A DNA stretch of 64,000 bases from Escherichia coli (lineage in GTDB: Bacteria > Pseudomonadota > Gammaproteobacteria > Enterobacterales > Enterobacteriaceae), in the NCBI RefSeq assembly GCF_030384885.1, contig NZ_CP128613.1; one strand, given 5' to 3'. Of this stretch, positions 36,754 through 36,863 are shown piece after piece (positions within the stretch are counted from its first letter, which is position 1; each line of letters opens with the position of its first letter). The notes under the pieces were generated by a model. That model worked only from the letters and a program-made list of their open reading frames with translations. It was not told where the DNA came from and searched no databases. The position numbers and the translations under genes are program-made.

Positions 36754-36845
36754 TAACGTGATGGGAAGCGCCTCGCTTCCCGTGTATGATTGAACCCGCA
36801 TGGCTCCCGAAATATTGAGGGGCGCGTTGAGGGTTCATTTTTATA
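36754..36845 (+). ncRNA. sroE: SroE small RNA in ispG-hisS spacer (approximate)
   Basis: 110-bp spacer with hairpin gggaagcgcctcgcttccc and downstream T-run; SroE is recalled as lying between gcpE(ispG) and hisS in K-12. Confidence 0.4.
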
Positions 36846-36863
36846 TTCAGAAAGAGAATAAAC

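What the first reader, a model, noticed from the sequence alone, without database searches (positions are those of the whole stretch)
36754..36863. Structured ispG-hisS spacer consistent with the SroE small RNA
The 110-bp spacer contains a strong hairpin (gggaagcgcctcgcttccc) and a distal T-run. SroE is recalled as mapping between gcpE(ispG) and hisS, possibly as a processed 3'UTR/5'UTR product. Boundaries here are approximate.
Basis: partly seen in the sequence, partly recalled or inferred. Interest (0 to 1): 0.25.

Follow-up and report, generated by a model that had tools for sequence, protein, structure and literature searches.

The report
Known SroE RNA between ispG and hisS

Summary
Observation and interpretation both hold. 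The window is E. coli. ispG ends at 36753 and hisS starts with GTG at 36864, leaving a 110-nt spacer. The quoted hairpin lies at 36763-36781 and a T5 run at 36838-36842. Rfam's sroE model (RF00371) matches 36753-36844 (+) end to end at 110.4 bits (gathering score 51, E 1e-26). K-12 annotates ncRNA sroE (b4761) at the homologous position, and 89 of 92 nt are identical. The fold is more stable than all 200 shuffles (-40 kcal/mol, z = -5).

In 14 relatives, variation is confined to the two apical loops; stems, linker, U-run and the hisS ribosome-binding region are almost invariant, while 64-91% of flanking third-codon columns vary. No compensatory pair changes were seen.

Serratia, Rahnella and Shimwellia have no Rfam hit but keep the layout: a 5' hairpin, then a long hairpin on a GAACC...GGGTTCA base followed by a T-run about 20 nt before hisS.

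My reading, which is inferred, is that SroE is the stable ispG 3'UTR / hisS leader fragment, bounded by cleavage at the stop codon and a terminator-like hairpin, and acts mainly in cis. A trans-acting role is unproven. T-box, His-rich uORF and antiterminator ideas were tested and not supported. The feature is already known and of low interest.

The parts
35635..36753 (+). ispG (gcpE) coding sequence, the upstream gene; its stop codon TAA is at 36751-36753
   Evidence: ORF list. NCBIfam NF001540 scores 527.6 bits against a cut-off of 345. RefSeq annotation of the 100%-identical strain.
36753..36844 (+). sroE small RNA (92 nt) as defined by Rfam RF00371 and K-12 b4761
   Evidence: cmscan 110.4 bits, E 1.2e-26, full model. 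K-12 annotation at the homologous place. 89/92 nt identical to K-12.
36762..36782 (+). Hairpin 1: stem U-GGGAAGCG / CGCUUCCC-G with a 3-nt loop (CCU), 9 nt after the ispG stop codon
   Evidence: Rfam consensus structure, MFE fold. Stem invariant in 15 relatives; the closing pair varies G-C/G-U and the loop varies. Replaced by unrelated GC-rich hairpins in Rahnella and Serratia.
36783..36790 (+). Single-stranded linker UGUAUGAU, invariant in the Escherichia-Citrobacter-Salmonella group
   Evidence: Alignment A2. Partly fixed by the search pattern used to fetch those loci, but also kept, apart from one deleted U in Kosakonia, in Klebsiella, Kosakonia and Superficieibacter, which were fetched through HisS.
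36791..36837 (+). Hairpin 2: long interrupted stem-loop with 7-bp base UGAACCC/GGGUUCA; the apical part (36810-36823) is the only strongly variable stretch
   Evidence: Rfam structure and MFE. Variable columns listed. The base and the GGGTTCA arm are kept in all 21 loci, including those with no Rfam hit.
36838..36847 (+). U-run UUUUUAUAUU directly after hairpin 2; with hairpin 2 it looks like an intrinsic terminator; the annotated SroE 3' end falls at 36844
   Evidence: Sequence. A T5-T7 run is present in every relative except Superficieibacter, where it is interrupted (CATATTTAT).
36845..36863 (+). Remaining 19 nt of the hisS leader, with purine-rich Shine-Dalgarno-like AAAGAGAA (36851-36858) before the GTG
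   Evidence: Sequence. Only 1 of 19 columns varies among 15 relatives. AGAGAA is kept in all relatives.
36864..38138 (+). hisS (histidine--tRNA ligase), the downstream gene, GTG start
   Evidence: ORF list. TIGR00442 scores 523 bits against a cut-off of 286.75. RefSeq annotation.

Best explanation
This is the sroE locus of E. coli: the 92-nt RNA encoded by the ispG-hisS spacer. That identity is shown. How it most likely works is inferred. The spacer is transcribed as the tail of rodZ-ispG transcripts and is at the same time the 5' leader of hisS. The 3' end of SroE forms at hairpin 2 plus its U-run, a terminator-like module 20 nt upstream of the hisS start codon that stops or pauses some of the polymerases coming from ispG. 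The 5' end forms by endonucleolytic cleavage in the AU-rich single-stranded stretch at the ispG stop codon. Hairpin 1 near the 5' end and hairpin 2 at the 3' end then protect the fragment, so it accumulates as a discrete roughly 90-nt species. On this reading its main role is in cis, as punctuation between ispG and the essential hisS and as the hisS leader. Its detection as an 'sRNA' is largely a consequence of its stability. About 0.97 for the identity and about 0.5 for the cis-punctuation mechanism; the confidence value given is for the statement as a whole, weighted towards identity.
For: Identity: Rfam RF00371 at 110.4 bits against 51, full length; K-12 ncRNA sroE b4761 at the homologous position; 89/92 nt identity; published SroE sequence (PMC6172242 supplement); region present in 5425 of 5426 complete E. 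coli genomes.

Structure: -40 kcal/mol, z = -4.99. Outside the 18 pattern-fixed positions, 20 of 73 SroE columns vary, mostly in the two apical loops, while 91% and 64% of ispG and hisS third-codon columns vary.

Terminator-like architecture is conserved more widely than the sequence family. Klebsiella, Kosakonia and Superficieibacter have Rfam hits with very different hairpin-2 interiors. Serratia, Rahnella and Shimwellia have no hit, yet keep a 5' hairpin plus a long hairpin on a GAACC...GGGTTCA base followed by T5-T7 about 20-25 nt before the GTG.

Geometry: only 19 nt separate the SroE 3' end from the hisS start, and no sigma-70-like promoter is found in the E. coli spacer, so hisS mRNA must include or cross this element.

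Literature: SroE is listed among sRNAs processed from longer transcripts (PMC8313858). Its level did not differ across the nutrient conditions tested (bioRxiv 10.1101/2024.06.20.599902). Transposon insertions in it are not tolerated in two Salmonella serovars, where it is proposed as a cis element of hisS (PMC3632133). Overexpression gave no biofilm or motility phenotype (PMC4606813). Only 1 of 10 predicted mRNA targets bound, and weakly, in vitro (PMC6172242).
Against: No compensatory base-pair change was seen in any stem among 15 close relatives. The stems simply never vary, so covariation says nothing either way.

The curated Term-seq 3' ends of Adams et al. 2021, covering three growth conditions, contain no 3' end within about 25 nt of the annotated SroE 3' end (2640595). 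Termination here is therefore not a dominant event in those data, or it fell below their curation threshold.

The simple terminator scan does not flag hairpin 2 in E. coli.

SroE is listed among Hfq-associated sRNAs in nitrogen-starved cells (PMC12539622), which leaves room for a trans-acting role.

The near-total invariance of the primary sequence in the linker and the 3' arm goes beyond what a plain terminator needs and is not explained.

The 14 closest relatives were fetched with an 18-nt exact pattern inside SroE, which biases that sample towards conservation.
Confidence: 0.8

Rival explanations
1. SroE is a genuine trans-acting, Hfq-associated small RNA derived from the ispG 3'UTR. Like CpxQ or SroC, it would base-pair with mRNAs elsewhere in the genome and regulate them.
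For: It has the usual module of a terminator-type hairpin with a U-tail and conserved single-stranded stretches (5' AUAACGUGA and linker UGUAUGAU) that could act as seeds. It is listed among Hfq-bound sRNAs in nitrogen-starved E. coli (PMC12539622). It is marked Hfq-dependent 'Y' in the supplementary table of PMC6172242. Weak in vitro binding to ligB mRNA was reported. Its primary sequence is conserved more strongly than structure alone requires.
Against: Nine of ten predicted targets failed to bind in vitro, and the tenth bound weakly. There was no overexpression phenotype for biofilm, motility or fimbriae. Abundance did not differ across the nutrient conditions tested. No (ARN)x Hfq motif was found (PMC5575007). 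The 5' hairpin and linker sequences are entirely replaced in Serratia and Rahnella while the architecture stays, which fits a cis structural role better than a conserved seed.
Confidence: 0.2
2. The element is a sensing leader of hisS that adjusts hisS expression to histidine or tRNA-His status. It could be T-box-like, a HisRS autoregulatory operator, or a translation-coupled attenuator.
For: It sits consistently at the 5' end of the essential hisS gene, and a T-box-like role was proposed by Barquist et al. 2013 (PMC3632133). A terminator-like hairpin lies 20 nt before the start codon. GGGAAGCG is repeated (SroE positions 11-18 and 67-74 in K-12), which could in principle give an alternative pairing. 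A 46-codon ORF starting at ATG 36800 has 6 His codons.
Against: No T-box or other cis-regulatory Rfam family matches the region even at E <= 10, and 92 nt is far shorter than a T-box. With hairpin 1's 5' arm blocked to mimic a ribosome at the ispG stop codon, the terminator hairpin remains the minimum-energy structure in all 14 species tested. The GGGAAGCG repeat is absent in Klebsiella and Kosakonia and is altered in this very window. The His-rich ORF has no Shine-Dalgarno sequence, its residues 4-8 change freely, and it is missing or not His-rich in Klebsiella, Kosakonia, Superficieibacter and one C. amalonaticus strain. The hairpin loops vary and hold no conserved GUG anticodon mimic.
Confidence: 0.12
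3. The hairpins are chance features of a non-functional spacer, and the Rfam match only reflects close relatedness to K-12.
For: The window is E. coli, so any K-12 spacer would be found again by homology. No covariation supports the structure within close relatives.
Against: The spacer is far better conserved than neighbouring synonymous sites: 27% and 5% variable columns against 64-91%. Variation is confined to the loops. The two-hairpin-plus-U-run layout persists in Yersiniaceae where the sequence does not. z = -4.99 against shuffles. Transposon insertions are not tolerated in Salmonella.
Confidence: 0.02

Closest known systems
SroE RNA (Rfam RF00371; E. coli K-12 gene sroE, b4761)
   Same: Same locus (between ispG and hisS, same strand), same length (92 nt), same two-hairpin structure, 89/92 nt identical, full-length model match at 110.4 bits.
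   Different: Three substitutions in the apical part of hairpin 2 relative to K-12 (C to T at 36813, AA to GC at 36822-36823). They change local pairing but not the total folding energy: -40.4 against -40.5 kcal/mol over the 97-nt stretch folded. The variant is shared with strain 2013C-4282 and Escherichia sp. MOD1-EC7003.
Processed 3'UTR-derived small RNAs of enterobacteria (CpxQ, SroC, RaiZ type)
   Same: It starts at or just after the stop codon of the upstream gene, ends at a hairpin with a U-tail, and is filed in the literature with sRNAs processed from longer transcripts (PMC8313858).
   Different: Those RNAs have validated targets and seeds, and SroE has none. Its 'terminator' lies 20 nt in front of an essential co-oriented gene, so the same sequence is also a 5' leader.
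T-box leaders and other aminoacyl-tRNA synthetase leaders (thrS operator, pheST attenuator)
   Same: A structured leader directly upstream of an aminoacyl-tRNA synthetase gene with a terminator-like hairpin. A T-box-like role has been hypothesised (PMC3632133).
   Different: No T-box model match. No specifier or anticodon-mimic loop is conserved. There is no leader peptide under selection and no energetically favoured antiterminator.
Intercistronic partial intrinsic terminators within operons
   Same: A stem-loop followed by a U-run between two co-oriented genes with no room for a downstream promoter. The architecture is conserved across Enterobacteriaceae and Yersiniaceae.
   Different: The stem is long and interrupted rather than a compact GC hairpin (not flagged by the scan). 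No curated Term-seq 3' end is reported at this site.

Membership tests
SroE RNA (Rfam RF00371) | Covariance-model score at or above the curated gathering score (51 bits), over the full model | tested here: met
   110.4 bits, E 1.2e-26, model positions 1-92 of 92 at 36753-36844 (+); repeated with permissive filters.
SroE RNA (Rfam RF00371) | Location in the ispG(gcpE)-hisS intergenic region, same strand as both genes | tested here: met
   ispG 35635-36753 and hisS 36864-38138 identified by NCBIfam equivalogs. K-12 annotation puts sroE in the same place. Synteny rodZ-ispG-hisS-yfgM-bamB holds in all fetched loci.
SroE RNA (Rfam RF00371) | Two-hairpin secondary structure of the family consensus | tested here: met
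   98.1% of cells form standard pairs on the Rfam structure, against 32-57% for slid controls. MFE agrees, z = -4.99. Caveat: 0 compensatory changes, and 16 of 19 pairs never vary.
SroE RNA (Rfam RF00371) | A discrete transcript of about 90 nt in vivo | not testable with these tools
   Reported for K-12 in the literature (PMC3632133 cites the original screen; detected by RNA-seq in all conditions). No RNA data exist for this strain. No curated Term-seq 3' end at the annotated 3' end in Adams et al. 2021.
Hfq-dependent trans-acting sRNA | Hfq association | not testable with these tools
   Literature only: listed among Hfq-bound sRNAs in nitrogen-starved cells (PMC12539622). No (ARN)x motif (PMC5575007).
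Hfq-dependent trans-acting sRNA | Validated mRNA target regulated through a conserved seed | not testable with these tools
   Literature: 1 of 10 predicted targets (ligB) bound weakly in vitro. No phenotype on overexpression. The candidate seed regions are not conserved in Serratia or Rahnella.
T-box leader (RF00230) | Match to the T-box covariance model (specifier loop, T-box motif, antiterminator) | tested here: not met
   No T-box match at E <= 10 in 36600-37000 and none at gathering score in the whole window.
Leader-peptide transcription attenuator (his/pheST type) | Conserved short ORF rich in the cognate codon, plus mutually exclusive terminator and antiterminator structures | tested here: not met
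   The ORF from ATG 36800 has 6 His codons but is not conserved as a peptide and is absent outside the Escherichia-Citrobacter-Salmonella group. No switch away from the terminator hairpin occurs when the first 18 nt are blocked.
Intrinsic (Rho-independent) terminator | Stable stem-loop immediately followed by a U-run, with RNA 3' ends mapping to the U-run | tested here: inconclusive
   Hairpin 2 (7-bp base plus inner pairs) followed by UUUUUAUAUU, and the annotated SroE 3' end lies in the U-run. A T-run follows in every relative except Superficieibacter, where it is interrupted. However, the consensus scan does not flag it and no curated Term-seq 3' end is there.

The most novel reading that the evidence does not exclude
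SroE may not be a regulator at all. It could be the visible by-product of an order-wide 'punctuation' module between ispG and hisS. The module would consist of a hairpin after the ispG stop codon, followed by a long terminator-like hairpin whose invariant 3' arm (GGGUUCAUUUUU) is shared by Enterobacteriaceae and Yersiniaceae. In Serratia and Rahnella this second hairpin holds a near-consensus promoter (TTGAAx-18-TATAAT) ending 2 nt before GGGTTCA. hisS transcripts there would start inside the terminator's 3' arm and so escape it. E. coli has lost that insert and would have to feed hisS by read-through. The invariant 3' arm would then be conserved as the hisS mRNA 5' end or promoter discriminator rather than as part of an sRNA.
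Probability: 0.35. Interest if true: 0.3.

Novelty: already known. Interest (0 to 1): 0.08.

Why it matters
It matters little as a discovery. SroE has been catalogued since the early E. coli sRNA screens, has an Rfam family and has a K-12 gene number. The value here is that the first-stage call is verified at base resolution.

Two modest points come out of the comparison. First, the two-hairpin, terminator-like layout in front of the essential hisS gene extends beyond the Rfam family into Yersiniaceae, where the sequence is otherwise replaced. Second, several published or obvious ideas about function (T-box-like sensor, His-codon leader peptide, ribosome-controlled antiterminator) find no support in the sequences.

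This favours a cis role, as ispG terminator and hisS leader, for an RNA still listed as an uncharacterised sRNA. It also points to simple experiments that would settle the question.

Tried and rejected
1. T-box or other riboswitch. A permissive Rfam search of 36600-37000 gives only sroE, plus two hits of no significance: a partial sroE match on the opposite strand (16 bits, E 0.49) and DUF3085 RNA (13.5 bits, E 7.4).

2. His-rich upstream ORF. ATG 36800 opens a 46-codon frame with 6 His codons that overlaps the hisS start. It has no Shine-Dalgarno sequence and residues 4-8 vary freely. The His codons come from the alternative frame of hisS and vanish where hisS diverges (C. amalonaticus ku-bf3). 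There is no equivalent ORF in Klebsiella, Kosakonia, Rahnella or Serratia. Rejected.

3. Ribosome-controlled antiterminator through the GGGAAGCG repeat. Blocking the first 18 nt leaves the terminator hairpin as the MFE structure in all 14 species. The repeat is missing in Klebsiella and Kosakonia and is mutated in this window. Not supported.

4. tRNA-His anticodon mimicry (GUGAU in the 5' tail). It is not conserved: GCG in Intestinirhabdus, absent in Rahnella and Serratia. Rejected.

5. A sigma-70 promoter in the E. coli spacer. The scan found none. By eye the best candidates have 15-nt spacers or 3/6 hexamers. The hisS promoter position in E. coli stays unresolved. I could only confirm that Eisenbeis & Parker 1982 exists as a citation, not read it.

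6. Covariation. The genome contigs pattern scan returned only 13 close relatives plus 3 chance hits. Their stems never vary, so there are no compensatory changes.

7. 5'/3' end data. Vogel 2003 and Thomason 2015 are not held. The SMRT-Cappable-seq supplement has no hisS or sroE entry. The Dar & Sorek supplement is not held. The Adams 2021 Term-seq has no curated 3' end at the SroE terminus.

8. 'REP' label. RepRanger (PMC12306157) labels sroE as containing a REP. That paper uses a broad definition of palindromic elements, and I did not follow this up.

Full report
**Observation**

The window is Escherichia coli. A 401-nt stretch around the finding is 100% identical to strain 2013C-4282 and is present in 5425 of 5426 complete E. 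coli genomes. The surrounding genes, all on the + strand, are:
- rodZ, 34595-35608
- ispG, 35635-36753
- hisS, 36864-38138, with a GTG start
- yfgM and bamB downstream

rodZ, ispG and hisS were identified by NCBIfam equivalog models well above their cut-offs. yfgM and bamB are named from the RefSeq K-12 annotation of the homologous region.

The quoted hairpin gggaagcgcctcgcttccc is at 36763-36781 and the T-run TTTTT is at 36838-36842.

The 92-nt stretch 36753-36844 folds at -40 kcal/mol against -25.4 +/- 2.9 for dinucleotide-preserving shuffles (z = -4.99), and none of 200 shuffles folded as well.

**Identity**

Rfam RF00371 (sroE) matches 36753-36844 on the + strand over the whole model at 110.4 bits, with a gathering score of 51 and E = 1.2e-26. 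A permissive search of the region confirmed this and found nothing else of note.

RefSeq K-12 MG1655 annotates ncRNA sroE (b4761) at 2640595-2640686, between hisS and ispG on their strand. Its first base is the last base of the ispG stop codon, just as in the window. The window differs from K-12 at 3 of 92 positions, all in the apical part of hairpin 2. The SroE sequence used experimentally by Mihailovic et al. is the K-12 sequence (PMC6172242 supplement).

**Conservation**

An exact-pattern scan of one genome per species returned 13 enterobacterial loci (Escherichia, Citrobacter, Salmonella arizonae, Intestinirhabdus) and 3 chance hits. All 13 match RF00371 at 103-117 bits.

I aligned 300 nt of ispG, the spacer and 300 nt of hisS and counted variable columns:

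| Region | Variable columns |
|---|---|
| ispG third-codon positions | 91% |
| hisS third-codon positions | 64% |
| SroE, outside the 18 pattern-fixed positions | 20 of 73 (27%) |
| 19 nt between SroE and the hisS GTG | 1 of 19 (5%) |

The variable SroE columns cluster in the hairpin 1 loop (36771-36774) and the apex of hairpin 2 (36810-36823). On the Rfam structure, 98% of cells pair, against 32-57% when partners are slid. No pair shows a change on both sides, and 16 of 19 pairs never vary. Covariation is therefore uninformative in this sample. The sample is also biased, because it was selected through a motif inside SroE.

**More distant relatives**

To escape that bias I fetched loci through HisS homologues. 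The synteny rodZ-ispG-hisS-yfgM-bamB is kept in all six.

- Klebsiella (81 bits), Superficieibacter (77) and Kosakonia (55) still match RF00371. Their hairpin 2 interiors are much shorter or different, while hairpin 1, the linker, the hairpin base and (interrupted in Superficieibacter) the U-run are kept.
- Shimwellia, Rahnella and Serratia have no Rfam match at E <= 0.01. Their 136-139-nt spacers nevertheless fold into the same layout: a GC-rich hairpin of unrelated sequence soon after the ispG stop codon, then a long hairpin on a (G/U)GA(A)CC(C/U)G...CGGGUUCA base followed by U5-U7, then 20-25 nt containing AGAGAA before the GTG.
- The 3' arm GGGUUCA followed by a U-run (interrupted in Superficieibacter) is the same in all 21 loci. 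The 5' arm changes only in wobble-compatible ways (A to G in Shimwellia, C to U in Serratia and Klebsiella).
- In Serratia and Rahnella, hairpin 1 is itself flagged as terminator-like. The 3' half of hairpin 2 contains TTGAAT/TTGAAC-18-TATAAT (10 of 12 consensus matches) ending 2 nt before GGGTTCA. E. coli lacks this insert and has no promoter-like site anywhere in the spacer.

**How it most likely works**

Shown:
- the sequence family, the position and the two stable hairpins
- the U-run and the extreme conservation of everything but the loops
- the 19-nt distance from the RNA's 3' end to the hisS start codon

Inferred:
- The spacer is transcribed as the 3' tail of rodZ-ispG mRNA and is also the hisS leader, because there is no room and no recognisable promoter between hairpin 2 and hisS.
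- The SroE 3' end arises at the terminator-like hairpin 2 and U-run.
- The 5' end arises by endonucleolytic cleavage in the AU-rich, unpaired stop-codon region (AAAAAUA|AUAACG). A U at +2 fits the RNase E preference as I recall it from Salmonella cleavage maps; that recollection is my own knowledge and was not tested here.
- The two hairpins protect the fragment, so it accumulates.

Published observations fit a housekeeping cis element better than a stress-responsive regulator:
- SroE is listed with sRNAs processed from longer transcripts (PMC8313858).
- Its level did not differ across the nutrient conditions tested.
- Overexpression has no biofilm or motility phenotype.
- Nine of ten predicted targets do not bind, and one (ligB) binds weakly.
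- Insertions in it are not tolerated in Salmonella Typhi and Typhimurium, where the authors propose a cis role for hisS (PMC3632133).

Evidence against the simple terminator reading:
- The curated Term-seq 3' ends of Adams et al. 2021 include ends inside hisS and ispG but none near 2640595.
- SroE appears in a list of Hfq-bound sRNAs.
- The primary-sequence invariance of the linker and 3' arm exceeds what a terminator needs.

**Rivals**

A trans-acting Hfq sRNA remains possible (about 0.2). A sensing leader (T-box-like, HisRS operator or attenuator) is less likely (about 0.12), for these reasons:
- There is no T-box match.
- The loops vary and hold no conserved anticodon mimic.
- The His-rich 46-codon ORF from ATG 36800 is not conserved as a peptide or across genera.
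- An antiterminator built on the GGGAAGCG repeat is neither energetically favoured nor conserved.

A chance structure is effectively excluded by the conservation pattern.

**Verdict**

The feature is already known: SroE, RF00371, b4761.

Interest is low. The only mildly new points are that the architecture extends beyond the Rfam family into Yersiniaceae, and that a candidate hisS promoter sits inside the hairpin there. Both are comparative inferences that need transcript-end mapping.

Noticed in passing
window 23600-23904 (-): Full-length match to Rfam ryfA RNA (RF00126), 312 bits against a gathering score of 80. It is a known E. coli small RNA / toxin-related locus.
   Followed up: no
window 16115-16224 (+): Full-length match to the iscR stability element iscRS (RF01517), 127 bits against a gathering score of 40. 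It is a known cis-regulatory element of the isc operon.
   Followed up: no
L023 1434-1463 (Serratia) and L022 1436-1465 (Rahnella): A near-consensus sigma-70 promoter (TTGAAT or TTGAAC, 18-nt spacer, TATAAT) lies inside the 3' half of the terminator-like hairpin upstream of hisS and ends 2 nt before the invariant GGGTTCA. E. coli lacks this insert, and there GCGTTGA abuts GGGTTCA directly.
   Followed up: partly
L016 about 434-850 (Citrobacter amalonaticus ku-bf3): SroE is normal (114 bits), but the hisS 5' end downstream is strongly diverged: 52% third-position differences across the flanking ispG and hisS codons against about 30% in other Citrobacter, and an N-terminus [17 protein letters not shown]. 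This suggests a recombination or replacement breakpoint at or just after the hisS start.
   Followed up: no
protein P0002: A 608-aa protein deposited under the whipworm Trichuris trichiura is 100% identical to E. coli HisS over 97% of the query and is fused to a TPR_21 (YfgM-like) domain. This is almost certainly bacterial contamination and a gene-merging artefact in a eukaryote assembly.
   Followed up: no
window 36800-36940 (+): A 46-codon ORF starts at the invariant AUG inside hairpin 2 and overlaps the hisS start out of frame. It has 6 His codons (13%). It is kept in Escherichia, Citrobacter and Salmonella but not under peptide-level selection, and it is absent in other genera, so it was judged coincidental.
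   Followed up: yes
window 36813, 36822-36823: This strain's SroE differs from K-12 by C to T and by an adjacent AA to GC in the 3' side of hairpin 2. The second change destroys the second copy of the GGGAAGCG repeat but leaves the total folding energy unchanged. The same variant occurs in E. coli 2013C-4282 and Escherichia sp. MOD1-EC7003.
   Followed up: partly
K-12 coordinates 2640283 and 2640434 (-), corresponding to about 141 and 292 nt into hisS: The Adams et al. 2021 Term-seq lists strong curated RNA 3' ends inside the hisS coding region (141 nt into the ORF, and one further in) but none at the SroE 3' end. Their origin was not examined.
   Followed up: no
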